From Paramecium tetraurelia (lineage: Eukaryota): a stretch of DNA of 36,277 nucleotides. Shown piece after piece: positions 2,293 through 36,277 of this stretch; within the stretch, counting starts at the first letter, position 1, and every line of letters starts with the position of its first letter. Below the pieces are notes generated by a model. It had not been told where the DNA came from. It was given only the letters and a program-made list of their open reading frames with translations, and searched no databases. A program made the translations under genes and the position numbers. Location: NCBI GenBank assembly GCA_000165425.1, contig CT868007.1:248001-284277 (forward strand), given 5' to 3'.

Positions 2293-2794
2293 TCATTCAA
2301 AGAAAAAAAGTATATAAACACATTCAAATAAATTTTATTTGTTTTAATTTATTTTAATTACTATTTCTTTATCATGTTATTATACTACACCTTCTGAAAT
2401 GTGTCTAACATTACCCAGAAATTACTGAATGCACACCTAACTGAGGACTAATTCTAAATTCCTGCAAGGAGTTTAATAAAATTTAAGAAGCAAGCTTATA
2501 CATAAAACACCATCCTCTTTCCCCTCCTTAAATAAAATCAAGTTATATATATAAATATATCAATAAATTCACATAAAAATAGAGATTTAATTAAAAACTT
2601 AAACCTTATGTTTCTTTGACTACTTTTAACAATAGGATTCTGGTCCCTTGAGAATAATTAAAATTCTTACATTAAAAATTGAACATTTTAAATTATATCC
2701 AAACATGTTATTAATAGATTTATTCTAAAATAAAAAAATCTTATAAATAAAGCAAAATTTAATTAATTTATAGAATTAGAAAATTATTTCATAA

Positions 2795-5700
2795 ATGTAG
2801 AAAACTGATTTTAACTTCAAAATATGCGCTTGCGGAAAAGTATTTGAACCTTACTCTTCCTTTGAAGCATAAGTTAAATGTGACACTTGTTTAGAAAACA
2901 AAAAATTTTCAACAAATCAAACAGAAAAAGTACTCTTGGATCAATAACAAGAATAATATGCTAATTAAAGTGGTGACAATTAAATTAAATCTATTAGGTA
3001 ATACAAAACAAAAGTAAGAAGATGAAGAATCTATTATAGAATTTGATAAGCCAATTAAATTAAATTCAAATTATGGAAACTATGATCATCATATTGGTAT
3101 TAAAGCCTAATTACAAACATTAGGAAATGCCTTATAAAGTTTAAATAAATATGAAGAATCAAATATTGAACAGGAGAAGGCGATTCAAATTGATCCAAAT
3201 AATTGTTGTGACTACATCAATAAAGGTATTAAAACATCATTACAAATATTAGCAAAAGCTTTAATGAAGATAAATAAATTTGAAGAAGCAATTTATGAAA
3301 TTGATAAGGCAATTTAATTGAATCCAAATGATCCCATCTGTTATAATATGAAAGGTATAAAGCATTATTACAAAAATTAGGAAATTCATTATAAAGTTTA
3401 TATAAATATGAAGAATCAATTACCGAATATGAGAAGGCGATTCAATTAGATTCAAGTAATAGTAACTACCATTAAAATAAAGGTATCAATCTTAAATTAA
3501 AACATTAGCAAAAGCATTACATCAGTTAAAAGATTATGAAGAAGAAGTTATTGAACATGATAAGATATTAAAAGTGACTTAAAATAATCCTGAAAAGGAA
3601 ATTTTTACTAGTATCAAAGCGTTATTTAATAAATTAGGAAATTAATTATATAAATACGAAGAATATGAACAATCAATAATATAAGTTGACAAGGAAATTG
3701 AATAAAATCCAACTAATGCTAATTCATATTATAATAAAGGCATCAATATAAGATTATATCATATAGGATTACTCTTATAAGATTTAAAAATGTTTGATGA
3801 ATCAATTATTTAATTTAAAAAGGCAATTGAAATAAATCCAAATAATGCCATGTACTATAATAAAAAAGGTATAAAGTTATTAATAAATTATTAGGAGATG
3901 TTCTATGCTAGATACATAAATATGAAGAATCAATTATAGAATATAATATGGCAATTTAATTAAATCCAAAATCTCCTACGTACTATTTTCATAAAGGTAT
4001 TTATTTTCTAATGGTTAAATTAGGTAAAGCATTACTAAAATGCAATAAATCAATCATTGAATTTGAAAAGGGAATTGAATTAAATCTAAATGAAGCTAAC
4101 TACTTAAACAAAAAAGGTTTAAATATACAAACAAACTATTTAGGTTTCCCTTTATATAATTTAAACAACAATGAAGAATCAATTATAAAATATGATAAAG
4201 CAATTGAATTAAATCCAAATAATGCTAAATACTATTATAGTAAAGGTTGAAATCTATAAATAATTTAATTAGGAAATGCTTTATACAATTCAAAGAAATA
4301 TGAAGAATCAATTATAGAATATGATAAAGCAATTGAATTAAATCCAAATGATGCTGAATACTATAATAGTAAAGGTTGAAATATATTAATAATTTAAATA
4401 GGATATGCCTTATATGAGTTATATAAATATGAGGAATCAATTATAGAATTTGATAAAGCAATTGAATTAAATCCAAATTATGATGATTACTATAATAGTA
4501 AAGGTTGAAATATTTAAGTAATTAAATTAGGAAATGCTTTATGCAATTAAAAGAAATATGAAGAATCAATTATAGAATATGATAAAGCAATTGAATTAAA
4601 TCCAAATTATGATGATTACTATAATAGTAAAGGTTGAAATCTATAAATAATTTAATTAGGAAATGTTTTATGGAATTTAAAGAAATATGAAGAATCAATT
4701 ATAGAATATGATAAAGCAATTGAATTAAATACAAATTATGATGATTACTATAATAGTAAAGGTTGAAATATATAAATAATTGAATTAGGATTAGCATTAT
4801 AAGAGTTATATAAATATGAAGAATCAATTATAGAATTTGATAAAGCTATTGAATTAAATCATAATTATTCTTAATACTATTGCAACAAAGGTTGAAATCC
4901 ATAAATAATTTAATTAGGATAAGCATTATACAATTTAAAGAAATATGAAGAATCAATTAAAGAATATGATAAAGCAATTGAATTAAAACCAAGCTATGAT
5001 GTTTACTATAACCGTAAAGGTTGAAATATATAAATAATTTAATTAGGATAAGCATTATACTATTTAAAGAAATATGAAGAATCAATTATAGAATTTGATA
5101 AAGCAATTAAATTAAATCCAAATTATGATGATTACTATAATAGTAAAGGTTGAAATATATAAATAATTTAATTAGGATAAGCATTATACAATTTAAAGAA
5201 ATATGAAGAATCAATTATAGAATTTGATAAAGCAATTAAATTAAATCCAAATTATGATGATTACTATAATAGTAAAGGTTGAAATATATAAATAATTTAA
5301 TTAGGATAAGCATTATACTATTTAAAGAAATATGAAGAATCAATTATAGAATTTGATAAAGCAATTAAATTAAATCCAAATTATGATGATTACTATAATA
5401 GTAAAGGTTGAAATATATAAATAATTTAATTAGGATAAGCCTTATACAATTTAAAGAAATATGAAGAATCAATTAAAGAATATGATAAAGCAATTGAATT
5501 AAATCGATATCATGCTGAATACTATGATAATAAAGGTTGAAATATATTAATAATTTAAATAGGATATGCCTTATACAATTTAAAAAAATATGAAGAATCA
5601 ATTAAAGAATATGATAAAGCAATTGAATTAAAACCAAGCTATGATGTTTACTATAATAGTAAAGGTTGAAATATATAAATAATTTAATTAGGATAAGCAT

Positions 5701-8700
5701 TATACTATTTAAAGAAATGTGAAGAATCAATTATAGAATTTGATAAAGCTATTGAATTAAATCCAAATGATGATGTTTAATATAATTGTAAAGGTTGAAA
5801 TATATAAATAATTGAATTAGGATTAGCATTATAAGAGTTTTATAAATATGAAGAATCAATTATAGAATTTGATAAAGCTATTGAATTAAATCAAAATTTA
5901 TTCTTAATACTATTGCAATAAAGGTTGAAATCCATAAATAATTTAATTAGGATAAGCATTAATGCAATTTAAAGAAATATGAAGAATCAATTATAGAATA
6001 TGATAAAGCAATTGAATTAAATCCAAATTATGATGATTACTATAATAGTAAAGGTTGAAATATATAAATAATTGAATTAGGATAAGCATTATACAATTTA
6101 AAGAAATATGAAGAATCAATTATAGAATTTGATAAAGCAATTAAATTAAATCCAAATTATGATGATTACTATAATAGATAAAGGTTGAAATATATAAATA
6201 ATTTAATTAGGATAAGCATTATAAAATTTAAAGAAATATGAAGAATCAATAATAGAATTTGATAAAGCAATTGAATTAAATCCAAATGATGATGATTACT
6301 ATAATTGTAAAGGTTGAAATATATAAATAATTTAATTAGGATAAGCATTATACAATTTAAAGAAATATGAAGAATCAATTAAAGAATATGATAAAGCAAT
6401 TGAATTAAAACCAAGCTATGATGTTTACTATAACCGTAAAGGTTGAAATATATAAATAATTTAATTAGGATAAGCCTTAATACTATTTAAAGAAATATGA
6501 AGAATCAATTATAGAATTTGATAAAGCAATTAAATTAAATCCAAATTATGATGATTACTATAATAGTAAAGGTTGAAATATATAAATAATTTAATTAGGA
6601 TAAGCATTATAAAATTTAAAGAAATATGAAGAATCAATAATAGAATTTGATAAGGCAATTGAATTAAATCCAAATTATGATGATTACTATAATAGTAAAG
6701 GTTGAAATATATAAATAATTGAATTAGGATTAGCATTATAAGAGTTATATAAATATGAAGAATCAATTATAGAATTTGATAAAGCTATTGAATTAAATCA
6801 TAATTATTCTTAATACTATTGCAATAAAGGTTGAAATCCATAAATAATTTAATTAGGATAAGCATTATACAATTTAAAGAAATATGAAGAATCAATTAAA
6901 GAATATGATAAAGCAATTGAATTAAAACCAAGCTATGATGTTTACTATAACCGTAAAGGTTGAAATATATAAATAATTTAATTAGGATAAGCATTATACT
7001 ATTTAAAGAAATATGAAGAATCAATTATAGAATTTGATAAAGCAATTAAATTAAATCAAAATTATTCCTTAATACTATTGCAATAAAGGTTGAAATATTT
7101 AAGTAATTAAATTAGGAAATGCTTTATGCAATTTAAAGAAATATGAAGAATCAATTATAGAATATGATAAAGCAATTGAATTAAATCCAAATTATGATGA
7201 TTACTATAATAGTAAAGGTTGAAATATATAAATAATTGAATTAGGATTAGCATTATAAGAGTTATATAAATATGAAGAATCAATTATAGAATTTGATAAA
7301 GCAATTAAATTAAATCCAAATTATGATGATTACTATAATAGTAAAGGTTGAAATATATAAATAATTTAATTAGGATAAGCATTATAAAATTTAAAGAAAT
7401 ATGAAGAATCAATTATAGAATTTGATAAAGCAATTGAATTAAATCCAAATTATGATGATTACTATAATAGTAAAGGTTGAAATATTTAAGTAATTAAATT
7501 AGGAAATGCTTTATGCAATTAAAAGAAATATGAAGAATCAATTATAGAATATGATAAAGCAATTGAATTAAATCCAAATTATGCTGAATACTATAATAGT
7601 AAAGGTTGAAATATATTAATAATTTAAATAGGATATGCCTTATACAATTTAAAAAAATATGAAGAATCAATTATAGAATATGATAAAGCAATTGAATTAA
7701 ATCCAAATGATGATGATTACTATAATATTAAAGGTTGAAATATTTAAGTAATTAAATTAGGAAATGCTTTATGCAATTTAAAGAAATATGAAGAATCAAT
7801 TATAGAATATGATAAAGCAATTGAATTAAATCCAAATTATGATGATTACTATAATAGTAAAGGTTGAAATTATATAAATAATTGAATTAGGATTAGCATT
7901 ATAAGAGTTTTATAAATATGAAGAATCAATTATAGAATTTGATAAAGCTATTGAATTAAATCAAAATTATTCTTAATACTATTGCAATAAAGGTTGAAAT
8001 CCATAAATAATTTAATTAGGATAAGCATTATGCAATTTAAAGAAATATGAAGAATCAATTATAGAATATGATAAAGCAATTGAATTAAATCCAAATTATG
8101 ATGATTACTATAATAGTAAAGGTTGAAATATATAAATAATTGAATTAGGATTAGCATTATAAGAGTTTTATAAATATGAAGAATCAATTATAGAATTTGA
8201 TAAAGCTATTGAATTAAATCAAAATTATTCTTAATACTATTGCAATAAAGGTTGAAATCTATAAATAATTTAATTAGGATAAGCCTTATTCAATTTAAAG
8301 AAATATGAAGAATCAATTATAGAATTTGATAAAGCAATTAAATTAAATCCAAATGATGCTGACTCCCATTTTAATAAAGGTGTTAACAATGAAGTATTTA
8401 AATAGGACAAGCCTTATACATGATAGACAATTTAGAAGAAACAATTTTTGAATTTGATTAAGCAATTTAAATAGATCCGAAAATAGCAATTTATTACATT
8501 TATAAAGGTTATTCTTAGTGATATTGATTAGGAAATTCGTTATTAGATTTGAATCGATTTTAGCCATCTATTTTTTCACAAGATGAGTTACTGAATTTAC
8601 CTCATCAATAATTATTATCAAAACAAATTCATGTTTAAAATTACTTATATAATTAGAATATGTCTAATCAAAATTATAGCCACTAAATGATTTAAAGTAA

Positions 8701-8734
8701 TAGTGAATTTATAAATGAATATTTAATTAAATGA
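2795..8734 (+). CDS. Multi-TPR protein (about 44 repeats) with an N-terminal CxC..CxxC motif; one intron per repeat; five +1 exonic insertions in this assembly
   Basis: Starts MQKTDFNFKICACGKVFEPYSSFEAQVKCDTC. Repeated 102-nt exons encode e.g. GQALYNLKKYEESIIEFDKAIELNPNYDDYYNSK, matching the TPR consensus (Y4, G8, A/S20, Y/F24, A27, P32). Phase-1 introns start at 2973, 3097, 3226, 3355, 3483, 3611, 3740, 3869, 3997, 4117, 4246...8251, 8380, 8508. TGA at 8732-8734. Confidence 0.9.
4144..8379 (+). repeat. Near-perfect tandem array of 129-bp units (27-nt intron + 102-nt TPR exon), with 32 GTTGAAAT..TAG introns
   Basis: Intron starts at 4246, 4375, 4504, 4633, 4762, 4891, 5020 ... 8122, 8251. 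Spacing is 129, or 130 where a base is inserted. Confidence 0.97.
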
Positions 8735-12550: not shown

Positions 12551-15319
12551 ATGATTGCTGAAGTTTAGAGTAGTGAAGATCTATTAGTAATGTGTAGGAT
12601 ATGTGAGAAATAAGTATGAGTGTGGTATAACATTTGTAGACAGATGCTTCATTGATTGAGAATCACCTAGTGAATTGCTAACAAATCTTTGAGGCTAGAA
12701 AGCATTTGCATCAATTGGATGTGCAAATTCAAAAATTAGCAGAGTAGGCTCAGAACAGCTTTCGTACAATAAATACAAAATATCAAATCCATAAGTCCAA
12801 GCAGGCTAGATATACAAACCAGGATAATCGTGGAATGAGGAGCAGTGCACCGTTGAAATTGAATCAACCAGATGATTGTGCAAGTGAGGAGACAGGTTCA
12901 AGAACAAACAAGGTTAGTGCAAAGCTGTGTATAATTTTAGTGCGCAGTCAAATCGAGGTTTGCGAACTTAGGAGCAAGTTTAGCAAATAACGAGGCCTCC
13001 CAAGAGTAGACTTAGTAGGAATGTGTGACTTAGACTGTTTAATAGTCCATTACGGGAGAGGATTTCGATCAAATAATGAAACAATAGATAAAGTTATCAA
13101 AGAAAATAGAATAATAGAAACAAGGAAATAAGTTTGTTTATTCTCCAGAAATCAAACAAATAAGTTCTCCGATATCGAATGGTATGGGAAGTCCATTTTC
13201 TCTTGAGTACTTAATTATGAATATATAATAGTGATAACACTGAAATTTTGAAAGATTTGAGACTACAGTTAGACTCTCTGTCCATCATCACTAAATATAC
13301 TGAAGAAACTCTTAGAACAAATCATGGTACTCAATCAATTTAATTTGATCTAAAAATACAAGTGGATTTGTTCAACATCAAACACACTCTCTAAAAGGAG
13401 GTCCAAGATCTAGTGAAACTGACTTTGAAACTGATTGAAGTACAATTGAATCATTATCTCATTTTAGGAGAAGGTGCAATGTACTTAAAAAATATCGAGA
13501 TTGCAGAAACTGATTTCGGAGGAAGAGAAAATAGAAAATCTTACATCTCCACGTCTCAAGATCAACAATGTAGAATTAGGAAATCGTAGGACTTCATTAG
13601 GAAATTCTCTATAAGGACATTTTGAAATGCTCAAGAACAGTGGTAATGGAGCCAAATGGTTGAATAAGTAAAACATAGTTCCGAATTCTGAACCCAGTAA
13701 GTAGACTTAATCGAAAACCTTCACTGAAGGTGTAGGAAAGGATTGTATCTTTTAGAAATGTCTGAGTGAATCTGAAGATGGAGGATAGAGTAGCAGTGCA
13801 TCAGATTCAGAGGGTGTGGTGTCTAAGGAAATCAAAAAAAATATTACTAAGAAATCACTGGAAGAATCTTTTGAAATGGATAACTATGTAAAATAATCAA
13901 AAAGCAATATGATTTCATTTAAGGATTTGAATCAACATCAGGTGGATAATCAGTGTGAGTTTGATAATGAGAAGGAACAGAAGGTTAAGGGGTATTACAG
14001 TGATGGAGATTTCAAGACTACTAAATTGGTGAAGAATAAATAATTGTAAATCATAACATTATTGATATTTTAGATTGAATGTTACTCTTTAGGACTTTGA
14101 ATTTATCCAGGTGTTGGGTGTCGGAGCATTTGGAGCAGTGTGGTTGGTTTGTAAGAAGAAGACTAAGGATTATTATGCAATGAAGGTGATAGATTGTAGA
14201 AATAAGAATATGAATGAAATTCAGAATTTAAGAGCTGAAAAAAATGTATTTGAAATCTTAGAAGGTGATTTTGTAGTAAAAGCATTTTATTCATTTATTT
14301 AAGACAATTGTTTATTGTTCTTGTTAGAATATATGATGGGGGGTGATTTCAGTTAAGTTCTTTATCAATATGGACGTATTTCAGAATCAGTGGCTAAATT
14401 TTATTTGGCTGAGTTGCTCTTAGCAATTGAATCATTACACAAGAAAAGAATAATTCACAGAGATTTGAAACCACAAAATATCTTATTGGATGCACAGGGT
14501 CATCTAAAGTTGGCTGATTTTGGGTTATCTGAAATCGCATTAGTGTAAAAGATTAAGGAAGGGAAAGACGGATTCAATAGTTCCATTGATCCTGAGGCAT
14601 TACCTATGAATGTTTCAAAGAGGAACATCAAAATGAAAAGCAATATTGAATTTCATCTACAAAAGACTGCTACTAAGACAAGTATTTAAGAGAGAACTCA
14701 ATCAGGAAAAAGATAGAATAGAATAATTGGAACTCCCGATTACATTCCCCCTGAAGTCATCTGTGGATAATCTATATCGAACTTTTCAATAGATTGGTGG
14801 GCTTTTGGAGTGATAGCATATGAATTTTTAGTAGGCATTCCACCATTCAATGATTCTAGCATTCCGAAGGTGTTTGAGAACATAATGAATGGGAGCATCG
14901 AATGGCCAGAGATAGGATGTGGAGAAGACTCGATGAGTTAGGAGGCATATGAGTTAATTAATTCATTATTAGAACCTTAATACCATAAGAGACTTGGAGA
15001 GAAAGGTGCTGAAGAAGTTAAATCTCATAAGTTCTTCAATGCAGTTGATTGGAATAACATAAGGAATCAGGAGGCTCCCATGATTCCAATACGAGATTTA
15101 GACTAATTGGAGGAGGAAGAGAGCAATATCACGAAGAAGAAGAATGAGGAGGTGAAAATGAAGGATAGATTGCAATCAGTGCAAGTCTCCCATGATGGAA
15201 ACCTAGATGATGTAGCCAATCTAACCAGAGTTGATCTATTGGCCAAGATCAGTTAGAAGGATGCTGAAAATGTCATGAAAAAAAGATCAATTCGGAAGAC
15301 TATTTAACAATTTCTATGA
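12551..15319 (+). CDS. AGC Ser/Thr kinase of the Rim15/Greatwall/MAST/IRE type with an N-terminal zinc-finger motif
   Basis: [34 protein letters not shown] gives the CxxC..H..C motif seen in IRE/Rim15. Kinase motifs [29 protein letters not shown], a long insert before [11 protein letters not shown], and DWWAFG are present, plus an AGC tail. Five tiny introns (about 12614, 12913, 13208, 13440, 14046). TGA at 15317-15319. Confidence 0.92.
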
Positions 15320-15332
15320 TTAATATATACTC

Positions 15333-18300
15333 ATGTTAAAGTACTTTCATGAATTATCTGATGAATATTCCAAAAGTACATACAATCCATAAACCATGGC
15401 TGGGTGCATCGAGGGTTTGTATGAGTATTTGAAACAAGAGAAGAATGAGGATCAATTCGTCATCAATAATGGAGGGATAAAACTTATCAATCAATCTTAA
15501 TGGCATTTCGAAAAGCAATATTCGATCTGCTTAACATTCAATCCTCAAGGGGATGGGACGATCTTCTAATTTTCATCATCTCATATCGATGGCAAGAGAA
15601 TCATAGCCAATGGAGTTCATTGTTACTTAATTGGTGGTGTAGTCTTCTACAAGAATGTTTACCAGAGGTTCACTCTAGAAAGAGTTCTTGTGGAAGACTA
15701 CTCTTCCAATAATCAGTTGGGTGAAGTCGTAATGAATGGATGGAATGAAATAATTATTTCTCATGAATAAGGAAAACTATACTCCAGACCCAAGTTTATA
15801 TATTCAATTAATCAGATTAAAAATACGATACAGATTGAGTATCCCAAAATCAGGAATCAAAATCTGGAGATGCTCTATTTCCAGAACATATAATGCAAAG
15901 TCAAAGAAATCTCAGTTTACAATGAAGTTGGCGACCAGCATTTGAAATCTCCTTTTTATTAAATCTACCCCCTATACGATCCTCACTAGACGAAGAGAGT
16001 CAACGATAGAATTCAGAACGTAATCTATGAACTTTAGGGAGACACCAAGATGACATCTTCATTATAAAAATACGATTTTGTAGAATACGGCGGTATTAAA
16101 ATTTTAATTCCACTTTTTGATCTAATTCAATATTACGATCATTCTTAAATTGATGACCTATTTAAAATCTTACTCTATACTTTGTTACAGGATAGTCAAA
16201 TCAACAAGAATTAAATTGTCGAAATGAAACTATTCCAACAGATAGCATAGATCATCAATGTAGACATCCCCAATCTAAGTTAAATTTTGCAGATCAAACA
16301 AAAAGTTGAGGATCAAGATATACTCAATCAACTATTGTTGTTAATTATTGATGTCAATTTCATCAAAAGAATCACCGATTAATAGTAATACTGCATTTTA
16401 TTACAGCAATTCTATATCAGTGATCATCAGAAATACTTACAAGTCACTCCCATCTAATATTTGGCTCAGTTATTGGTGAGTGTCAATCAGAAGAGTCTAA
16501 TCCAAGATCAAATTCTATAAATTATGATTTACTCCTGCTAATATAACTTTAATACATTGAAGGACTAATTCAAACTATTTTTAAAGGTCGCCGAAGCCTC
16601 ATCAATCGAACTCAAAATCAAAGCCATCTAAAGTGCAACCAGGTTGGTTTCTGACTTATTCAGAGATGATCAAGAGAATTTCATTGTATTCAGAAATCAT
16701 AACATTCAAAATAAGATCCTAAATGACATCTTTCTTCTACTCTAGACTGATAGCATGGATTGTTTGGTGGCGACCATCACCTTGTTAGGATAAATGCTCT
16801 ATGGCACCAAGGACCTATTAAGTCAAGGCATGATCTCTTATATTTCTAAGGCGATCTGTGTAAACAATAACTTTGACAATCTATTGAATGCATTAACTCA
16901 ATTACTAAAGATTAACTGCTTGTGTGTTGAAATTCTGTAGCATCTATACTCTTAGACTAAATAACAAAATATTCTGGATTACTATTTCAATTACGTCAAG
17001 AAAATTAGCATTGAATAATAATAACTCATACTTTAATAACACTCCATTTGGTTTTTGGATTAATTGAAGATCGAATAAAACGAAAGACTTCTTTAGATTT
17101 TTATGCATCTTCTAGATTAGAATCCTCAATATCTGAGTCAAACTTTGATTCATTAACAAATTCGATAAGATGTGCAAACACTTTTGGTGATTGTCACAGA
17201 AGTGATTGAGAAGTTTAATGAAGAGCAAATATTTCAAGTACAGTAGATAATGTTCTAAATATACTTCTCAGTGCAATCGTTTAAGAATTTTGAAGGATTT
17301 TTAACTAAATTAATTAAGTATATAATATATCTAGAAAATGAGCAAGAGTTATCAAAAATAGTTGAACAAAAAGAACTACCTTTTGGCATTCAAAAGATCA
17401 TCAACTTGAGTTGCCCAATTGACAAGTTGAAAGAATGGTTATTCTATTTCACCAAGCTTTTTGAATAAACACAGTATCTGAATACAGAAACAAGTGAACT
17501 CTTCATGATCCAAATAGTTGAACTGCTTAAAGCAATCCAATCCTAAACTTAGGATCAGTAAATAAAGGAGGTTATCGAATATTTCTTCACTCAAAATGTG
17601 CTAATTCTCTAATCACTTTCAGAGCAACAAGTGCAAGTCTTTGATTCAATTAAATTTCAGTAAGACTTTTAGGCTTTTCAGGAATCTTTGTTGCTTAAGT
17701 GGACTCAAGAATAATAATAGATCAAAATGACACAATCAGAACAATTATCAAAATTAACAGATGAAATTAATTATGCTGCTGCATCGATGCAAGTGTCAGT
17801 GTACAAGTTAATGAACAAGACTCGAAAGATTAGATAGAGATGGTGCAAACTTTGGCATAATCTACGTATCACCGTGTATAGACCAAAAGATTGCAGATTC
17901 CAAGTAGATGAATAAATCGATCATGATTACAAATTCAAAGAGAATCCTTATTACACCAATAAAATTGAGAAATACATCAATAAGTATTATTCACGTCCCA
18001 TTTTAAAAGTGAAGTTTAAGAAGAACCCTGAGTTTGAGAATGACGCATAAGTGCAGTTGGAAAAGAAACAACAATACAAATGCTTTTGGTTGAAGAGCTT
18101 ATACTTAAAGCAAGGGGGCGTTACAATAGGAGATGAAAAAATAACATTCTCCTATTACTCCTATACCTAAAAGGCGAATCATATAACTTTGTTGCCTCAC
18201 ACAATACCAAATCACAAGCCATTTAAGAAATCGTGGAGGAGGGATTAAATTAGGTGGCTGCATGAAAGGATTTATATCAGAAATAGAAATGCCATTGAAA

Positions 18301-20208
18301 TCATCTTCAAGGATGGAGAGTCCCTGTACTTGATATTTTAGGACGAGGGATTGAAGGAAGAGATTATTGAGAAGTTGAAAATACAACCCAAATAATGTGA
18401 TTTTAATAAGGTTAGCAACTTCAAGTATTTGATGTATCTGAATTTCCTATCTTGTCGTTCTTACATCGATTTCACTAGATATCCAGTGTTTCCATGGGTT
18501 TTAAAAGGAAATGCATCAGATTTTGATGACAATGATATAGCATCAATACAGAATGAGATCAATTACAGAGATCTTTCTTTACCAATAGGAGCTTGTGGAA
18601 GTGAAGTCAGATTAGATTAATTCATCAAGAGATTCGAAAATGAGTAGTTTTATTACGGAACACATTATTCTAGTCAGGCATTGGTGTCTCAATATTTGGT
18701 ACGATTGAGTCCATTTACAGAGGCTGCAATATCAATCTAGGATGGTAAATTCGATATTCCAGATCGAATGTTTAGATCGATCATGAAGTCATGGATAGAT
18801 TGCAATAATGAAATGGCTGACGTGAGAGAATTGACTCCTGAATTCTTTTATTTGCCTGAAGCCTTTATAAACATCAATGCCCATAATTTTGGTAAGTTGC
18901 AAAGTAGTTAAGTCGTAAACAATGTGCAATTGCCACACTACTCCAATAAGAATCCATTTTATTATGTCGCCTAGAATATGATAGCATTAGAAAGTGAGTA
19001 TGCTATTAAGATTGAATGAATGGATTGACTTGATTTGGGGATACAAATAGCAAGGAAATGCTGCTGTCGATTCCTTCAATGTGTTTTATCCACTAACTTA
19101 CTCTAATTTTGATGAAGGGAGTATAGAAATCAATGAATTAGCAATGGAAACTCAAATTGCTCATTTTGGATAAACACCAGAGTAACTGTTTTATAAGCCG
19201 CATGCTCAAAAAAATGAAGTAGTTGATAAGACTTAGTGGTAGGCGGCAAAGAATAAAAAGTCATAAAGTAAATTGATCTATTTAATTTGTAATAAGAACA
19301 AAGTAGTTAGCATTCAGGAAGATTTCACTTTAATCTAATGGTAGATTGTTAAAAATTAATAACAGTTTTAAATTGAGAAACAAGTGTAATTACCTAGAAT
19401 TCATTTTGATGCTATGATCAAATATGTATTACCACCAATATTAGTATTGATTGAATAGTCAACCGTATTATTCGGTGGGAATAACAATGGAACACTTCTA
19501 TACTAGTACTTAGACAATTTGAAGGTGTAGGGAGTGATCGAATTGGAAAGTGAGATAATCAACAATCATTGCACTGTGACCGTTCTAGAGTCAAATAAAC
19601 AATAAAATATAGTGATACTTGGAACCAATAAGGGTTTGGTTTATTATTATAGCAAGATTCTGTAAAATAAATAGGATATAAAATAAGAGGAATTACTAAA
19701 GGGCAAATATGTGATCTATGACACAACCTCGCAAATCAATTCAATCACGATTTCAGAATAACTCACCATCTTTTGTGTTGGAACTCAAGACGGAACGATA
19801 TTCTTATATAATTTGTATAATCGCACTCTTTACAGATTTATAAATCATCCAAAAAGACTGCCTATTTATTATCTAGCATTAAGTTATTCTCCATTGCCTT
19901 GTATTTTATTTAGTTCCCATGATGAACGGGTTGTAGCATATTCAATAAATGGATTCTTGCTACAATTACTGTAAGTCAAAGGAAATATAGAATACATTTA
20001 AATCAAGAAATCACCTATAAATACCTTAGTATAGCATTTATTATTAAATTGATAGGTTGTAATCACTGACAATAACGTCTTTGAATATAGACTGCCATTT
20101 TTAGATAGACTGTCAATTGTCTCGTCCCAAATGTGTACAAGATTTGTTTAGGCAACAAAACAAATTTCTATTTATGGTTGTAAATCAGGTGATCTGCGTG
20201 TATTTTGA
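15333..20208 (+). CDS. BEACH-domain protein (ConA-like N-terminus, helical region, PH, BEACH, WD40) with an apparent frameshift at about 19010
   Basis: SNFKYLMYLNFLSCRSYIDFTRYPVFPWVL, RDLSLPIGA, YGTHYSS, GKFDIPDRMF, DVRELTPEFFYLPE, WIDLIWGYKQQG, FGQTPEQLF, then WD40-like strands. TGA at 20206-20208. Confidence 0.9.
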
Positions 20209-20342: not shown

Positions 20343-23300
20343 TCAATCTTATGAAAAGATACGCTAGTCAACTGTTAATCCAAACTCTCCATCTGATGTT
20401 CCAAATGCTAAAATTGTTCTGTCTGGTGACAAAGCAAAAGAACTAATATCGTTCATTGATTGTTAGCAATCAGTCAATTATATTTCATTTCTTTTCTGCA
20501 AAAAGGGAGTTGTCAACATTAATATTTTCTTTTCCATGCACAACGGTAACACCTATTAAAATATAAAAAAAACATACAATAATATCAGTTAACTTTGAAT
20601 CTTTAACGACTTTGAGATGTCCTTAATTCACAATATATTATTTTAATTCAAGATGTGCCAAGAATTGCCCATTAATGCTATATGAATAAATATTTTTGTT
20701 TTCGTAAAATGCTATTCCATATAATGGAGTACAATAACTACAAACTTTGCTAATGGGCAAACCCTTAGGATGTCTATAACTTCTTAAGTATTTGCCAGAC
20801 CATTAATTATACATGTGAATCCAACCATCACTAGAACAAGTTATTACAACTTTGAGATCATTACATATAAATATATCCGTAATAGATTATTCGTGATGAT
20901 GATGCTTACTAATTGGAATGTATGAGTTATTTAACACTTTATATATAATAAGAGTGCCATCCTTACTACCAGTAGCCAATATTCTCATTTTGTAATCAAA
21001 TCTCATTACTGTTATAGTGTGTTCTTATTCGAATCTCTATTCAGAGATGATACCATTATTATAAATAAGCAGTCTTCCATCCCATATGCCTCCGATCAAT
21101 ACTTATTTTCCTCTATTTAAAACAGGGAGTTCATCATAATTACAAGTCCAATCAAATAGATTTTAGTTTTCATCCATAAATTTCCCAAAATTGATGGGTT
21201 GCTCTTTCTAATTAGTAAGATCAAATTTGTTATCTTTTAAATCTAATTTAATAGTAGCACATTCTCCATTCCGACGAATAATCCAAACTTTGTTATCACT
21301 TGAGAAATGTATTCTAATAATTGATTTGCTTCTCTAATAATTTGATGACTAAGGTTGTGGATTATTTTGTTTTTATCGAAGGATTCTCTTTTCTATTTTT
21401 TCATCAACAATTCTAAAAACAATTTTTTATTTTCCTCTGGCAATGTGAGCTCTATCCCAAATTTAACTAGGACATTAACCAAAATGAATTGCTTGAGATT
21501 CCAATGATATCTTTTGTTTTTCATTCTTGATTGAATCCCAATCTATAGAATTTTCATATGTCAAATAATAAAATGTATTTAGAGCTTTGACTGCTTCTTC
21601 TCCCTTTTGTTTATATCCAAAAATTAAATCAATCCAATTGCAAATATGCTATGAAACATAATCACTTTCCAATTCCATTCTGTGAGCACAAATGAACAAA
21701 TAGGGGTTTTATTAAGTCCAAAAAGGCAATTCTACATTGTTTACTCGCTACCCCAGTTTACTATAATCCATAGTCATACTTTGTTAAATTAAGAAACATT
21801 TCAGGCAAATAGAAGAATTCAGGTATCAATTCTCTGACATCACTCAATTCTTCGACTGCATTCCGATATGTCTCAATGAATGAGAAGAATAGACGATCTG
21901 CTAAATCAAACTTGCCTGATTGTAATTCCTTGGCTCCATCAGAAAACGGCTTCAATCTAATGAGATAATGGAATATGATTGCTGGACTTGAATAATGACT
22001 CCCATAGTGAAATTGTGGAACCTTATTAAAATGATCTATCATGTTGTATCTCTATTCAAACACCTCGATCCTATCTTTAGTACCCAAAGCACCCATGCTT
22101 TTAGTTAAATCGCGATATTTATGCAATTACTCGCCATCATTCATGATCCACGGAAACACTGGATATTAGGTCAGATCCTTATTACTCCTTCCAGAAATTT
22201 TATTGACTTTCATCAAGTATTCAAAAGTCGTGATCTTATAATTATACCACTTATTCATAGCCTTACTCTCGAACATGACACTCACTGGATCTAATTTACC
22301 GGATTAAATTCTGGGCTTTAGATTGATAGTTCGTTGTTTCTTCAGAGAAATCAATTTCTCTATCACTTTTTGATGATCTCCATTTTAAAAATTGAATACA
22401 AGTGTACTACCTTCCAATAGAGTCAACTCCAAGGATGTCCATCTACCAATGTATCTTCTAAATTAAATATCGTAGATTTATTCCAGATCCCACTACTTCA
22501 CCAATTAGGAGTCTTCAGGTACTCTAAATTTGATCAGACTCTAATGGGTTTCTTTTTGAGTTATGGATTCAAAATAAAAGATCAAATGCGTATCACTTAT
22601 TCGTAAAGATCCTATTCTAACTGTTAATGTCTTGATCCACTGGACTCTGTGAAGAATCACTTCGTCTTGTTCATGTTATTATGAGTAGAATGGGATGATG
22701 GTGTCAAATATGATTTCATGTATTTTCTTTCTTTGTCTCTCTGGTTATTTCTTATCATAGTCAGCCAAATTCATTATTCTAGTACTTTACTATTGAGATT
22801 GCATAATGTTATCAATTTGGGGATAATCATACAACTTAGGTTTGAGTAAGGGTCTGGATTTCTATTTGGTTTCATATTTCCACATCTTCCATGTAAATCT
22901 AAATTAAATTCTTTGTATTACATCTAATTTTATACGATGTTGTCATAATGCATATCTATCGACGCAAATGGCTTATCGATTTATGCCTTGAACTCTGGAT
23001 GAGCCCACCATTGATTGAATACACGGACTCTGTTGAATGACTTCTTAAACATGTATCTGGCTTGTCTCATATAGATTTATTCTGAGTCTATCCTCTGTAT
23101 TTTTTAATCATACGAGTAGGTTGACGATGATGATATCCTATATGTTATATATTTTAATGAATTTACATCTATGAAAACAAGACTTCCTCAATTCCTTGTC
23201 GCTATGATTACAATCTATCCTCTAAGGTTTTCTTCTTTTAAGAGAAAATTCTGTAGGATTCTTCAAAATCACACTTGGTTTTTAGGTAATACTCTTCATT

Positions 23301-26300
23301 CATGAAGAATGATTACTATATTTTTTACAATAACGTTTGATTTTCCACAAAAACTTGCTTTGCTGCTATCATTTTCTCCATAATCAATTTATTATTTAAT
23401 TTGAGGGACTTGGTTTCAACAACATCAAAGATGTGTGAACTGTCTTTTCTGATTAAATCATTGAGCATTTTCATTAAAAACAATTTGTGTTGTTTGTACC
23501 CTTCAAAAATGAGAGCTTAGAAAGACTCATTCTTATTTAAAATCTGAGTAAAACAATCCACATACACAATCAAAAACTTAAATGAGTAGAACAAGCAATT
23601 CTTCACAATCTGCAGTAATTCCTACTTGATCTCCTTATCGTAATTGATCTCTTTTATTTTATCCTCCATTTAATACAGAAATATGAAATGCGATCCAATA
23701 ATCGAATACACTACTTTATCTTGTGATTCCTCGATCTCTTTGTCCCTTAAAGTCTCCGATGCTATAATTAAAGTTCTAACTAATTTATCGAGTGTATTCA
23801 ATATCACCTGCAATTGCTTGATGTTTTCACTGCTCTGCACATTGAAGGCGAAGTATTCAGCATTCAATTACAGAAAGAGTTAACACACTTAGACGAAGAT
23901 GGGGGATTGACCTTATTCTAACCCTATATCGAATTCAAACATCATTGCAGCGAATGTTTTCTATGATTCTGTGGGATTCTTCTACTCCAAAAGACCTAAA
24001 ATTCCTTTTTAAACAATCTGATAATCATCCAAGTAACTAATTATTTGTGTCGAGAATTTGCCACAAAATTGATTCACTATGTCACAGATATTCACAATAA
24101 GAATGTGATCCACCCATTGTATAATTCCAAATTATTGCTTCCATTCTAGGGATATATTGGAATAATATTTACTTTTAGGCATTTCTTATTGCGAAATGGT
24201 TAACTAAAATGCAATAGGGGAGAACTTATGGAATAAATAGTAATGCTCATTTTCACTCTCATTCTCAATAGTTCTTGGATCAGCAGTCACTAGTCGGAAT
24301 GTTTCAAAAATAACAGAATATAAGTTGACCCAAAAGGTTGAAAATAAATCCAATTTATAACAATCCCTAATTGATTATATGAAAAATAATTACGAGAAAT
24401 TAGAGAGCAACTGCTTGTATATCAATCTCATCAATAATTAGGTTGCCTACTGATTAATCTGTTCTCCATTAATCTCTTCCAAAACTCTGCAATAACTCTA
24501 TAATTGAGCCAATCGCTGAAACCCATTCTTTTCGTTCTGAATACCAGCTTTGATCACATTGCAATATAGTTTCAATCCACTATCCCACACCCAGAATTCA
24601 AACTAAGCCAACTCTCTAATATTGTATTGGTTTTAGATTTCCAAGAGAGTCTTTAAGATCCACCAATGAAACTCCTCATTATTTAATAGAAAAATGGCAC
24701 TGGCTTGATTCCATTTAATCAGCATACATAAATCTTACATAATGCGACCCTTGACTGAATCCACACAATATTCGAAATAACTAATCAAAAGAGACAATCC
24801 ACCATCAGATTTAATGATAAGATTTTCATCTAAAATCAGTGTATCCGAATTGGTCTTTCCAACTCTAGTTTTGAGCATCCATTCCATAATCGCAACGTAT
24901 AGAGGTTCATAATCAATAATCCTTCTATTTGCCTAAACAATGTTTTTGTTCTGAATAGCAGGCTGCTTCTTCTTTTCCTCAACAAAATTCTATTGTTCCT
25001 CTTATTAATGGAAGACTAAAGCTTGATTTACTAATGGTTTTCTAGGTTGGAAATCATCATCTTCATCGTCTGAGTAAGCCTCTTGCACCTCAACTGCAGC
25101 GCTGTTACCTAGAGTATGTGCAATCCAATTAGCGATTTCTTTTTCATTTGGAGATTAATTGATGCGAATACTCTCTGCTATCAACTTGATGCAACTAGTT
25201 TTGACATCTGGACAGGAACATGTTGTTAGTAGATTCAATAGCATTTGCATCACTTCTTCTTGGATTAGAATCTGAGATATGGGATTATTACTCTTGGTCT
25301 CGTATTGAAATAATCCTTGTAGCTTTTTGAGTAGTAGTTGGTAAAAACAAGGAGAGCATTTTAATGTGAAGACTCTCGCAATGTCTATGATGTTGGATTT
25401 CTCAATTTTGGATTGTGATTGAAATAATTTATTATGGAGGATGGCGTCAATAATATCTAATAACTGTAAACATAACTGATACTTAAGTAGGAATCTATCA
25501 ATTAAGCGTAGGGGATGGTAGGTAATTAGAAGTTGGTATAACCCATTTGATTCGCATGTTCTTGGCAGCATAATCTATTCTTCGGATCAATGTCGTAGAT
25601 CAAAATCTCGAGTATTTTACCGATTCCGAAAATCGATATACAAAATTCAGGATTATCATTATATATCATTCGAATGAATTTTAAGTAGTCTTCTATGATT
25701 GAAAAGTTCTCTAGTTTATAAATTTATATTCTCCACAATAAATTGCAAATGAATTGCTATTTCAACTTCGTATCCTGAATGGAATTGTGCAATTGTGAGA
25801 GCAATTCTATAGTTTGATTGTTGATCATGTCAAGTCCAGAATCATTTAGTTTAAGGGCTATCAAACTTAAATATTCAGTTCGGATCGCATCTTGCTATGT
25901 TTCTGGTCTGGTCTTGATGATTTAACAGAATAGAGTCAATAGTTCGTTCAGCAATGAATCATAAGGTTAGATTTTAATAAATAGTAATAGAGGAACAAAG
26001 TTTTCAATTCTACAGAATTAAGAAAACTGCTATTTTTAAGTTATTCTTAAGTAGGAACCGCTGAATTATTGCAATGCCCCATCAAATTTATTTATTGGAT
26101 CTGTGATAAAATTGGCTCTGGCTCTCAGTGGAGTATAACATAAAACTAGTTTATTATTCCCATGGCATTTATGTAAATTCCTTAGGTGATCATTGGATTA
26201 AATACCCAGGTCTTTGTCACCGCAAGTTAAATCACTATAGGCATAATAGTAGTTAATACTTTCCATCAAATCCATCATTGTAAATTAACACAGAAGTGAC

Positions 26301-35029: not shown

Positions 35030-35317
35030 GATAGATGAGCTTTAGCGCCTTTGTCATAAAGATTGTAAGAAACTTCTTGTTAGTTATGGATTGCTGAATA
35101 CAATTTCTAAAGCTTCTTCGAATCTGTAAATCTTAACTAAAGTCTTAGCTAAAATATCATCCATTGTTTACTTTACCTTTAGAATAAAACAATTTTGAAT
35201 CCTCTGGATTTCTTTATATTGCTAAATCATAATTTTCCAAAGCTTCTTCAAATCTGCACATTTTATCTAGAGTGAAAGCTAAAATATCATCTATTTTTGA
35301 TTATACCTTTACTACCA
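35030..35317 (-). CDS. 3' end of a second TPR-array gene, truncated by the assembly gap; last repeat frameshifted
   Basis: Exon AFTLDKMCRFEEALENYDLAIQENPEDSKLFYSK is flanked by related 28-nt phase-1 introns (GTATAATCAAAAATAGATGATATTTTAG and GTAAAGTAAACAATGGATGATATTTTAG). The next repeat AKTLVKIYRFEEALE continues in another frame as YSAIHNQQEVSYNLYDK. Confidence 0.75.
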
Positions 35318-35467
35318 NNNNNNNNNNNNNNNNNNNNNNNNNNNNNNNNNNNNNNNNNNNNNNNNNNNNNNNNNNNNNNNNNNNNNNNNNNNNNNNNNNN
35401 NNNNNNNNNNNNNNNNNNNNNNNNNNNNNNNNNNNNNNNNNNNNNNNNNNNNNNNNNNNNNNNNNNN
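35318..35467. other. Assembly gap (150 N)
   Basis: Run of N. Confidence 1.
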
Positions 35468-35539
35468 AGCAAAAAATTTAAACTAGTTTGCTTTAAATAT
35501 TTATCATATTAGTAGCCAAGTGCTGTTACAGCTATTGTT

Positions 35540-36277
35540 TTTTAATAATTAAAATTCATATAGATCTTATTAATCTTAATAAAAAATCATCTCCTAAATT
35601 GATTCTTTCATCTAAGGCTGTCAGATGAACTAAAAATTTGAATAAATCAAGGATTATTTTTTTAGCATATTTTTGTGATCAGATCCTATTTAATTTATTG
35701 ATATTTATATAAAGAGTAATTCTGTTGATTAAATTCATGATTATTAATTGTTTTGAGAACATCTGTTATTCTCTTAAAGCTACTCTTTCCATCTTGGAGC
35801 CTTTCTTCCTTATCATATATAAGAATTTTCTACTGATAATATTTCCTATTCGACATGCAATTGATTTAAATTTTATGATACATCTTTAATTTTCTCCCTT
35901 TTGAAAATTTTGATGAGAATAGGTAAGGTTGATATGACCAATTATTTTTGATATTTATTTCCCAGTTAAGATTCCATAAATTAACAAAATTTCCATTGCT
36001 TAAAGCTAATGTCTTATTATTAGGGGAGAAGCTTATTGATATTACATCCCTCTCTACTAAAAATATAGATTTTATTTTTCCTGTTCTTACATCCCATATA
36101 AAAATGCAATGATCTTACTGCAAGAGGCTAATAATTTACAATTAGGAGAAAAGCCAACTAAGCTGACACATTCGATATGTCCATTTAACTTAATTCCCTC
36201 ATTTATCCTTAACTTCCTCCACCTACAATTAAATAGTTTGGCTTAATTTATAGACATTCCACTCCGACGGTAATTGG
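35540..36277 (-). pseudogene. Degraded member of the Paramecium-expanded WD40(/pentapeptide) repeat family
   Basis: KLNGHIECVSLVGFSPNCKLLASCS, DHCIFIWDVRTGKIKS, VISISFSPNNKTLA and NLWNL lie in shifting frames. They are followed by INNHEFNQQNYS..DLFKFLVHLTALDERI, which resembles the region preceding the pentapeptide repeats in this family. Confidence 0.75.

What the first reader, a model, noticed from the sequence alone, without database searches (positions are those of the whole stretch)
2795..8734. Modular one-exon-per-repeat TPR gene: candidate variable recognition receptor
Seen: about 44 TPR units, nearly all on a 102-nt exon bounded by phase-1 introns at the same position (the conserved TPR Gly8 codon). 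Any exon can therefore be duplicated, lost, reordered or skipped in frame. Known: Tetrahymena has analogous LRR genes built from 90-nt symmetric exons, and fungal NLRs (HET-type) use highly conserved, shuffled TPR/WD40 arrays for non-self recognition. Inference: this may be a ciliate TPR equivalent, a rapidly diversifying binding scaffold, for example against endosymbionts, pathogens or toxins.
Basis: partly seen in the sequence, partly recalled or inferred. Interest (0 to 1): 0.85.

Follow-up and report, generated by a model that had tools for sequence, protein, structure and literature searches.

The report
Paramecium-type gene, one exon per TPR
A ciliate gene encodes about 43 protein-binding TPR repeats, each on its own tiny exon, because a 129-base exon-plus-intron cassette was copied in tandem; it belongs to a gene family already seen in Paramecium, and nothing found shows that it is an immune-type receptor.

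Summary
On the + strand, 2795-8734, there are 45 exons and 44 introns. 43 internal exons each encode one TPR: 36 are 102 nt, 5 are 103, one is 99 and one is 93. Introns are 24-28 nt, and 41 of 44 split a Gly codon at TPR position 8, in phase 1. The uniform phase follows from tandem copying of a 129-nt exon+intron cassette (TRF). Edge units have diverged. Units 11-42 are 76-100% alike, with 2-3-unit blocks duplicated.

Four of these exons otherwise match an intact sibling at 0-1 mismatches, so I read the insertions as probable assembly errors. This is untested.

RNA contigs from three runs show two introns removed.

The product would be about 1,584 aa: a short Cys-motif head, then only TPRs. 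No membrane segment or Pfam signalling domain in head or tail.

Published P. tetraurelia tables show TPR genes with the same ~125-131-bp period and one small germline IES per unit. The receptor idea is not supported. Interest is moderate.

The parts
2795..8734 (+). Whole gene, from ATG to the TGA stop: 45 exons and 44 introns
   Evidence: Gene model. The stop codon is read from the sequence. The ciliate code (TAA/TAG = Q) is needed.
2795..2972 (+). Exon 1: a 59-aa head with a CxC...CxxC motif, plus the first base of a split Gly codon
   Evidence: Translation. No Pfam match even at E<=10. No relative found.
2973..2997 (+). First intron, 25 nt, phase 1 in G|GT
2998..4143 (+). Diverged 5' units 2-10 (exon plus intron each); pairwise 61-80% alike
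   Evidence: Identity matrix and nhmmer. A DNA contig of run X1 covers 2600-4218 with 0 differences.
3740..3766 (+). 27-nt intron-like segment that starts GC, not GT, and has no in-frame stop: either a GC-AG intron or a retained 9-codon insert
   Evidence: No RNA contig lay on it.
4144..8277 (+). Homogenised core, units 11-42. The cassette is a 102-nt exon plus a 27-nt intron of the form GTTGAAAT...TAG. Pairwise identity is 76-100%
   Evidence: All 32 core introns carry an in-frame TGA just after the splice donor.
5821..5923 (+). 103-nt exon 24. It equals exon 40 plus one extra T at 5897
   Evidence: 0 mismatches, 1 gap.
5951..6053 (+). 103-nt exon 25. It equals exon 41 plus one extra A at 5961
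   Evidence: 0 mismatches, 1 gap.
6081..6183 (+). 103-nt exon 26. It equals exon 19 plus one extra A at 6178
   Evidence: 0 mismatches, 1 gap.
6469..6571 (+). 103-nt exon 29. It equals exon 18 plus one extra A at 6479, with 1 mismatch
6986..7088 (+). 103-nt exon 33. By eye, its 5' part resembles exon 18 and its 3' part the exon 16/31/40 type, with an extra C near 7065
   Evidence: One search aligned it only against exon 18 (9 mismatches, 1 gap). The match of the 3' part to exon 40 is my reading of the sequences, not a separate alignment.
7863..7890 (+). 28-nt intron, one T longer than its siblings
8278..8531 (+). Diverged 3' units 43-44 with their introns
8380..8405 (+). 26-nt intron that is removed in RNA
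   Evidence: The join of exon 43's end to exon 44's start is seen in contigs of runs X20, X17 and X19. It is not among the loose ends of DNA run X1. Each half occurs once in the window and the joined form is absent.
8532..8734 (+). Last exon: a half-TPR cap, a 66-aa N/Q-rich tail and the TGA stop
   Evidence: no Pfam family.

Best explanation
This is a real, transcribed macronuclear gene of a Paramecium-type ciliate. It is most probably a member of the large, IES-dense, TPR-only gene family already noted in P. tetraurelia, and possibly the published example PTET.51.1.G1500001.

How it arose (shown from sequence). A 129-bp cassette, made of one 102-nt TPR exon and one 27-nt intron, was amplified in tandem. 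Every copy therefore inherited the same intron position (the Gly8 codon) and the same phase 1. The uniformity is a by-product of duplication, not a designed modularity. The ends of the array are old and diverged. The middle 32 units are kept alike and reshuffled by unequal crossing-over or gene conversion.

Introns. The founder intron of the core carries GGT|TGA. Retention of any core intron, which is a multiple of 3 in length, would therefore give a premature stop. I infer that nonsense-mediated decay would then remove such transcripts.

What it makes (inferred). The product is an acidic, soluble protein of about 1,584 aa: a 59-aa Cys-motif head, about 43.5 TPRs, and an N/Q-rich tail. I read it as a long TPR superhelix that acts as a multivalent protein-binding scaffold in the cytoplasm. 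It has no signalling or effector domain of its own.

Variation among units. Units differ mainly at the positions that line the concave ligand groove. This points to past selection on structure and binding rather than neutral decay.

The frameshifts (inferred, untested). The five 103-nt exons are most likely consensus errors in a gapped, scaffolded assembly of a near-identical array.
For: - Repeat structure: TRF; exon and intron model.
- TPR identity and intron position at profile position 8/9.
- Gradient of identity: edge units are mostly 61-77% alike, core units 76-100%, and units 17=28=32 and 18=20 are identical.
- Duplicated blocks: 12 pairs of 2-3 units at >=97% identity.
- Premature stops: 33 of 44 introns give an in-frame stop if retained.
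- Splicing in RNA: the join of exon 43 to exon 44 appears in 3 of 3 RNA-type runs laid. A core join (...AAAG|GATAAGC...) appears in 2 of 3. Neither is among the loose ends of the DNA run.
- Soluble protein: conceptual length 1,584 aa, maximum KD-19 0.56, D+E 251 against K+R 174.
- Where the units vary: 6 of the 7 published concave-face positions (2, 5, 9, 12, 13, 33, 34; PMC1261162, passage) are among the 12 most variable of 34 positions (hypergeometric p=0.004; Mann-Whitney p=0.0003). Helix B has pN/pS 0.54.
- Frameshifts as errors: there are 6 single-base insertions, 0 deletions, and 0-1 substitutions against sibling exons. The window holds a 150-N gap, so it is a scaffolded assembly.
- Family: Vitali et al. 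[quoted passage not shown] In their Table S2, 28 of 34 successive IES spacings in 5 TPR genes are 116-131 bp.
- Intron size: 24-28 nt fits the 18-33 nt, mean 25 nt, published for P. tetraurelia (PMC8997360).
Against: - As assembled, the frame breaks at codon 984. I could not check the insertions against reads, because I did not lay the core array.
- No close protein relative was found. A profile of the unit gave only generic TPR proteins: the 8 of 150 top hits I read look bacterial or STAND-NTPase type, at about 20-36 bits per repeat. The 5' units gave 5 weak hits and the head gave none. Membership of the family therefore rests on architecture and literature, not on sequence.
- The species is not confirmed. 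The neighbouring kinase's best named hits are Paramecium aurelia-group species and Ichthyophthirius at only 41-45% identity. True orthologues may lie outside the length window searched.
- pN/pS of 0.87-1.0 also fits relaxed constraint.
- Family members seen in Table S2 have TPM of only 0.1-0.8.
- The ligand and the cellular role are unknown. Vitali et al. say so for the whole family.
Confidence: 0.6

Rival explanations
1. Decaying or dead gene. The array is a recent, selectively unimportant expansion that has already picked up five frameshifts. Its transcripts are made but destroyed or useless.
For: - Five 103-nt exons, with the first in-frame stop at codon 984.
- pN/pS is near 1 in half of the repeat.
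- Similar family members have TPM 0.1-0.8.
- In a paralogous array on scaffold 100, one continuous series of IESs is split into two gene models. This suggests broken frames there too.
Against: - All six length changes are +1 insertions, with no deletions.
- Four of the five affected exons have 0-1 substitutions against an intact sibling. That pattern fits consensus error better than natural decay.
- Variation among units is concentrated on concave-face positions, and helix B has pN/pS 0.54.
- Spliced RNA of the 3' end is present in three runs.
Confidence: 0.2
2. This is a rapidly diversifying non-self recognition scaffold, the ciliate counterpart of the exon-shuffled LRR/TPR receptors, aimed at endosymbionts, pathogens or toxins.
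For: - Symmetric one-repeat exons and reshuffled blocks.
- Variation sits on ligand-facing positions.
- Precedents: 13 of 24 Ectocarpus NB-ARC-TPR proteins have 42-aa TPR exons with exon shuffling (PMC3341825, sections read), and Tetrahymena has 90-bp LRR exon arrays.
- Near-consensus TPR arrays like these sit at the end of STAND-type NTPases among the profile hits.
Against: - No NB-ARC, NACHT, kinase, death-fold or other output domain, and no signal peptide or membrane segment.
- pN/pS is not above 1.
- No dead exons in introns or on the other strand, unlike Ectocarpus.
- Exon skipping is not reported in P. tetraurelia.
- There are no data on infection or strain variation.
Confidence: 0.12
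3. Largely an assembly construct. The true locus has a different, perhaps smaller or variable, number of units, and the order in the window is a mis-join of near-identical reads.
For: - The window is a gapped scaffold (150 N).
- The six odd insertions cluster at 5897-7890, where units are most alike.
- DNA runs hold only 0.70-0.75 of the sampled words.
Against: - The 5' 1.6 kb is confirmed base for base by an independent run's contig.
- 15 runs hold half or more of the sampled words, and the 20 holders come from 14 studies.
- Even if the count is wrong, the cassette architecture, intron phase and splicing stay the same.
Confidence: 0.08

Closest known systems
IES-dense TPR gene family of Paramecium tetraurelia (example PTET.51.1.G1500001; Vitali, Hagen and Catania 2019, PMC6771405)
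   Same: - These are tandem 'TPR coding exons'.
- The macronuclear period of 116-131 bp, inferred from IES spacings in 5 genes of Table S2, matches the 129 bp here.
- Their function is stated to be unknown.
- G1500001 is the first gene of scaffold 150 and covers scaffold positions 2471-2500. In this window an in-frame ATG at 2429 precedes the array. The two could therefore be the same gene.
   Different: - Identity is not shown. Table S2 was cut when stored, and the rows for scaffold 150 are not visible.
- The 2471-2500 deletion is not TA-bounded in this window.
- No germline data for this locus were available, so the defining one-IES-per-unit feature is untested.
- I found no statement in print of the 102-nt, phase-1, Gly8 rule or of the TGA-guarded 27-nt introns.
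Ectocarpus NB-ARC-TPR genes with one TPR per exon (Zambounis et al. 2012, PMC3341825)
   Same: One repeat per symmetric exon of fixed length, tandem arrays, and exon duplication and reshuffling (sections read).
   Different: - There, exons encode 42 aa (a TPR plus a linker) and are described as phase 0. Here they encode 34 aa in phase 1.
- There, an NB-ARC domain precedes the TPRs, dead exons lie in long introns, and diversifying selection is reported (abstract).
- None of these three features was found here.
[quoted passage not shown] 2019, PMC6564038)
   Same: This is a ciliate with arrays of one-length exons in a single intron phase, explained by clonal expansion and ectopic recombination. 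TPR is listed there among the top domains of species-specific genes.
   Different: - The repeat type differs (LRR against TPR), as do exon length (90 against 102) and phase (2 against 1).
- Their introns are about 56 bp or longer, against 27 nt here.
- They describe tens of thousands of exons. The scale of the Paramecium family was not measured here.
- That paper says P. tetraurelia LRR genes lack such arrays, and it does not describe TPR exon structure.
Fungal HET-type NLRs with highly conserved, shuffled TPR/WD40/ANK repeats
   Same: Repeats with very high internal identity, with variation at a few surface positions. This is recalled knowledge; no paper was read here.
   Different: Those proteins carry a NACHT or NB-ARC domain and an N-terminal effector domain, and the repeats are not split one per exon. 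No such domains are present here.

Membership tests
TPR repeat (Pfam TPR_1/TPR_2/TPR_8/TPR_11) | A 34-residue helix-turn-helix unit that scores above Pfam's gathering cut-off | tested here: met
   Single exon 4275-4373: TPR_11 32.7 bits (cut-off 26.8) and TPR_2 27.9 (27). Exon 5178-5276: TPR_2 28.6. The two-unit piece 3126-3353: TPR_2 41.5.
TPR repeat (Pfam TPR_1/TPR_2/TPR_8/TPR_11) | Signature small or hydrophobic residues at positions 8, 20, 27 and 32 | tested here: met
   in 27 in-frame core exons: G8 27/27, S20 27/27 (small, in place of the usual Ala), A27 27/27, P32 21/27.
P. tetraurelia IES-dense TPR gene family (Vitali et al. 2019) | Tandem TPR-coding exons with a period of about 125-131 bp in macronuclear DNA | tested here: met
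   The period here is 129 nt. 28 of 34 IES spacings in 5 family genes are 116-131 bp (49 of 270 'tetratricopeptide' rows seen).
P. tetraurelia IES-dense TPR gene family (Vitali et al. 2019) | One 26-30-nt germline IES per unit, near the 5' end of the exon | not testable with these tools
   No germline (micronuclear or PGM-depleted) sequence of this locus could be read. The rows for scaffold 150 are cut from the stored table.
P. tetraurelia IES-dense TPR gene family (Vitali et al. 2019) | The organism is P. tetraurelia | tested here: inconclusive
   A TGA-only stop code and 24-28-nt introns fit Paramecium. 20 runs from 14 studies hold the stretch under coded organism names. The kinase neighbour gives only 41-45% identity to named Paramecium proteins.
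Exon-shuffled candidate receptors (Ectocarpus NB-ARC-TPR type) | One repeat per symmetric exon of constant length | tested here: met
   36 of 43 internal exons are 102 nt, and all junctions are phase 1 if the five +1 insertions are set aside.
Exon-shuffled candidate receptors (Ectocarpus NB-ARC-TPR type) | An NB-ARC (STAND NTPase) signalling domain in the same protein | tested here: not met
   The head (59 aa) and tail (66 aa) have no Pfam family even at E<=10. The rest of the protein is TPR units.
Exon-shuffled candidate receptors (Ectocarpus NB-ARC-TPR type) | Diversifying selection (dN/dS above 1) on repeat exons | tested here: inconclusive
   A crude Nei-Gojobori count over 351 non-independent pairs gives 0.87 overall, 1.0 for loop plus helix A, and 0.54 for helix B. 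No site model was run.
Exon-shuffled candidate receptors (Ectocarpus NB-ARC-TPR type) | Inactivated repeat exons lying in introns or nearby | tested here: not met
   nhmmer with the unit profile finds no further unit in the 36-kb window, apart from one weak hit (E=0.003) inside another gene at 35174-35255. Introns of 24-28 nt leave no room for dead exons.
Tetrahymena-type fixed-length exon arrays | Three or more consecutive exons of exactly one length in a single intron phase | tested here: met
   There is a run of 13 consecutive 102-nt exons (exons 11-23), and other runs.

The most novel reading that the evidence does not exclude
In these arrays each 34-residue repeat would be interrupted twice: by a 27-nt intron, and in the germline by a ~27-nt IES. 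The near-identical IES ends in neighbouring units could let the DNA-elimination machinery cut from one unit to the next. This would delete whole 129-130-bp units, in frame, each time a new macronucleus is made. The array would then be a somatically variable binding scaffold, regenerated at every sexual generation: a DNA-level counterpart of the somatic recombination that Zambounis et al. proposed for brown algae.

The one pointer comes from a sister array on scaffold 100. There, a 130-nt TA-indel is catalogued as an IES (position 774) and is retained in only 37-63% of macronuclear copies in all eight data sets listed in Vitali's Table S2.
Probability: 0.08. Interest if true: 0.8.

Novelty: new member of a known kind. 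Interest (0 to 1): 0.4.

Why it matters
The locus is a very clean natural example of exon amplification. One cassette was copied about 43 times, with the intron, its splice phase and its stop-codon guard copied along.

If the link to the Paramecium TPR family holds, the same cassette also carries a germline IES. These genes would then let one follow how exons, introns and IESs co-amplify, and how surveillance by premature stops shapes tiny introns. They would also show whether programmed DNA elimination can change repeat number in the soma.

It is also a practical warning. Such arrays are places where assemblies and gene models of ciliate genomes are least reliable. Here five exons break frame, and a sister array is split into two gene models.

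It does not by itself reveal a ciliate immune receptor.

Tried and rejected
1. A minimal-intron path from 2795 to 8734 (23 introns). Rejected because it only avoids stops by ignoring the repeat register.

2. An upstream in-frame ATG at 2429 as the start. Its 123 codons include 14 TAA/TAG and read like AT-rich spacer. I kept 2795, though an automatic annotation might choose 2429.

3. Relatives by sequence.
- The 5' three-unit piece against longer proteins gave 5 weak hits.
- A profile of 38 of the 43 unit exons (the five 103-nt exons were left out) against 1.84 billion representatives gave 24,524 hits. The 8 of the top 150 that I read were generic or STAND-type TPR proteins.
- The head gave no hit.
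- The unit profile was too short for the search for homologous proteins.
- The protein atlas does not take ciliate-code readings.

4. Two exact-pattern scans of metagenome contigs, one for the core intron and one for the core exon, gave 0 loci.

5. RNA cover of the 5' part. None of the three RNA-type runs had a contig on 2795-4160.

6. Depth in the core-like bins of DNA run X1 was up to 26,105, against 302 on the unique part. I did not use this as a copy number, as the tool warns.

7. The joints 2691>3818 and 4227>4461 have sides of only 21 letters and unrelated loose ends. I read them as contigs of other loci.

8. Identification with PTET.51.1.G1500001. It is suggestive but not shown. The rows are cut from the stored table, supplementary file 1 was not searchable, and the 2471-2500 deletion is not TA-bounded in this window.

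9. Species from the neighbouring kinase. Only 41-45% identity to named Paramecium and Ichthyophthirius proteins.

10. I did not send the core array (4.1-8.3 kb) to read laying, because that tool turns away stretches with a long repeat. The six +1 insertions therefore remain unchecked against reads.

11. Earlier notes of this scan held nothing relevant.

12. No whole genome is held for this window, so the genome could not be scanned for other 102-nt exon arrays.

Full report
**What is in the sequence**

Between 2795 and 8734 on the + strand lies a tandem array with a 129-nt period. TRF reports 41.4 copies over 3022-8354, and a core of 34.3 copies at 87% matches with no indels. The window only makes sense under the ciliate code, in which TAA and TAG read as Gln and TGA is the sole stop.

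I located GT...TAG segments of 24-28 nt at the repeat boundaries. This gave a model of 45 exons and 44 introns. The 43 internal exons are 36 x 102 nt, 5 x 103, 1 x 99 and 1 x 93. The introns are 37 x 27 nt, 4 x 26, and one each of 25, 28 and 24.

43 of 44 introns start GT, one starts GC, and all end TAG. The split codon is Gly in 41 of 44 cases.

Pfam scores single exons as TPR_2 or TPR_11 above the curated cut-offs. The first full residue of each exon aligns to profile position 9, so the intron lies in the Gly8 codon. A nucleotide profile of the unit finds 43 units, all on this strand, and none elsewhere of note in the window.

Five exons are 103 nt (5821-5923, 5951-6053, 6081-6183, 6469-6571, 6986-7088), and one intron is 28 nt (7863-7890). 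As assembled, the spliced CDS is 4760 nt and stops at codon 984.

Each odd exon was aligned to its nearest intact sibling, with these results:
- Exon 24 equals exon 40 plus one T.
- Exon 25 equals exon 41 plus one A.
- Exon 26 equals exon 19 plus one A.
- Exon 29 equals exon 18 plus one A, with one mismatch.
- Exon 33, by eye, is a mosaic of two unit types plus one C.

That makes six insertions, no deletions and almost no substitutions, all within the 2 kb where units are most alike. The window also contains a 150-N gap, so it is a gapped scaffold. I read these insertions as probable consensus errors, at roughly 70%, rather than as decay. I could not test this, because I did not send the core array to read laying.

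**How the array is built**

Units 2-10 and 43-44 are mostly 61-77% alike. Units 11-42 are 76-100% alike. Units 17, 28 and 32 are identical, as are 18 and 20. Twelve pairs of 2-3-unit blocks at non-adjacent places are at least 97% identical, for example 16-17 against 31-32 at 99.6%.

This is the usual signature of tandem amplification with unequal crossing-over or gene conversion: old edges and a homogenised middle. It also explains the identical intron position and phase. They were copied with the cassette, so they are not in themselves evidence of selection for modularity.

The older 5' introns begin GTA or GTT. The core introns all begin GTTGAAAT, which places TGA in frame straight after the split Gly. 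In all, 33 of 44 introns give a premature stop if retained. Six introns of 3n length in the old part do not. In P. tetraurelia, introns are 18-33 nt with a mean of 25. [quoted passage not shown]

**Expression**

I laid contigs of three RNA-type runs (X20, recorded as RNA-Seq; X17 and X19, guessed RNA) and one DNA-type run (X1) on 2600-4535.
- X1 has a 2,083-nt contig covering 2600-4218 with no difference.
- In all three RNA-type runs, a contig continues with the end of exon 43 joined directly to the start of exon 44. Each half occurs once in the window (8363 and 8406), and the joined form is absent from the DNA. Intron 8380-8405 is therefore spliced.
- A core join (...AAAG|GATAAGC...) is seen in X20 and X19.
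- Neither join is among X1's loose ends.

These joins could also come from an identical paralogue.

**The protein**

With the five odd exons masked, the conceptual product is 1,584 aa. It has no hydrophobic stretch (maximum 19-residue Kyte-Doolittle mean 0.56) and is acidic. The 59-aa head has a CxC...CxxC motif but no Pfam family and no relative. The 66-aa tail has none either. There is thus no NB-ARC or NACHT domain, kinase, signal peptide or membrane anchor.

Among the 27 in-frame core exons (22 distinct), variation is concentrated at TPR positions 9, 2, 12, 6, 1, 32, 34, 13 and 5. Fourteen positions, most of them in helix B, are invariant. Six of the seven positions that Magliery and Regan found most variable and exposed on the concave face (2, 5, 9, 12, 13, 33, 34; PMC1261162, passage) are among the 12 most variable here (p=0.004).

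A crude pN/pS is 0.87 overall, 1.0 for loop plus helix A, and 0.54 for helix B. The pattern fits a protein shaped by selection for fold and for a varied groove. It does not show positive selection.

**Comparison with what is known**

- Xiong et al. 2019 describe nearly 50,000 exactly 90-bp LRR exons with phase-2 introns in Tetrahymena. They ascribe them to exon shuffling and list TPR among the fastest-evolving domain families, but give no TPR exon structure (PMC6564038).
- Zambounis et al. 2012 describe Ectocarpus NB-ARC-TPR genes with one 42-aa TPR exon per repeat, dead exons and diversifying selection (PMC3341825; abstract and sections 16-17).
- Vitali et al. 2019 is closest. It shows that P. 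tetraurelia TPR genes are the most IES-dense in the genome, up to 10 per kb and 1,135 IESs in all. [quoted passage not shown]
- Arnaiz et al. 2012 note multi-copy IESs that arose by expansion of TPR or WD40 repeats (PMC3464196).

In the part of Vitali's Table S2 that is stored, I saw 49 of 270 'tetratricopeptide' rows. The five TPR genes with five or more IESs have 28 of 34 successive spacings at 116-131 bp, IESs mostly of 26-30 nt, and TPM of 0.1-0.8. A period of 116-131 bp for a 102-nt repeat implies one tiny intron per repeat, as here.

Table S1 places a deletion at scaffold 150, positions 2471-2500, inside G1500001. This window has an in-frame ATG at 2429 ahead of the array. The gene may therefore be that published example, but the rows that would settle it are cut off.

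My literature searches found no paper that states the 102-nt, phase-1, Gly8 rule for Paramecium.

**Verdict**

- The architecture is real and striking, and it is explained by tandem cassette amplification.
- The gene is best filed as a member of an already noticed Paramecium TPR family, and as a ciliate parallel to the known exon-per-repeat arrays.
- The 'variable recognition receptor' reading has no direct support and lacks the signalling domains of its models.
- The most novel reading still open is that per-unit IESs let programmed DNA elimination vary unit number in the soma. It is hinted at by a 130-nt element with 37-63% retention in a sister array.
- The integrity of the reading frame is the main open point.

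Noticed in passing
window 35160-36277 (- strand), with a 150-N gap at 35318-35467: A second gene with a TPR unit (TPR_1, E=1e-4) followed by WD40-type propeller matches runs off the end of the window. The assembly gap lies inside it. The unit profile gives a weak hit at 35174-35255.
   Followed up: partly
window 15333-19016 (+) and 20488-25571 (-): Two large convergent genes both carry PH_BEACH plus BEACH domains. One also has a neurobeachin-type WD40 propeller and a DUF4704 solenoid region. They look like a pair of neurobeachin/LYST-like paralogues placed tail to tail.
   Followed up: no
window 14075-15316 (+): A protein kinase ORF has a roughly 60-residue insert in the catalytic domain (two Pkinase stretches). 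Its best named relatives are Paramecium aurelia-group and Ichthyophthirius kinases at only 41-45% identity. The gene probably continues upstream to about 12600.
   Followed up: partly
Vitali et al. 2019 Table S2, scaffold 100 positions 203-1994 (not this window): Gene models G1000001 and G1000002 share one continuous series of 27-28-nt IESs spaced about 130 bp apart (218 to 1732). They are probably a single TPR array split by annotation. A 130-nt 'IES' at 774 is retained in 37-63% of copies in all eight data sets listed, which amounts to a one-unit length polymorphism in macronuclear DNA.
   Followed up: partly
window 4207-4357, loose ends: Both RNA and DNA contigs carry unrelated sequence next to 21-36-nt stretches that match the TPR exons. 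This shows that other loci with near-identical TPR words exist and are transcribed.
   Followed up: no
proteins P0014, P0017, P0021, P0062: Among the profile hits I read, the four with the highest score per repeat are long prokaryote-like proteins. They carry a P-loop (GEAGSGKTTLLY-type) NTPase region, and in two cases a SIR2-like start, followed by near-consensus TPRs very like the units here. The likeness probably reflects convergence on the TPR consensus.
   Followed up: no
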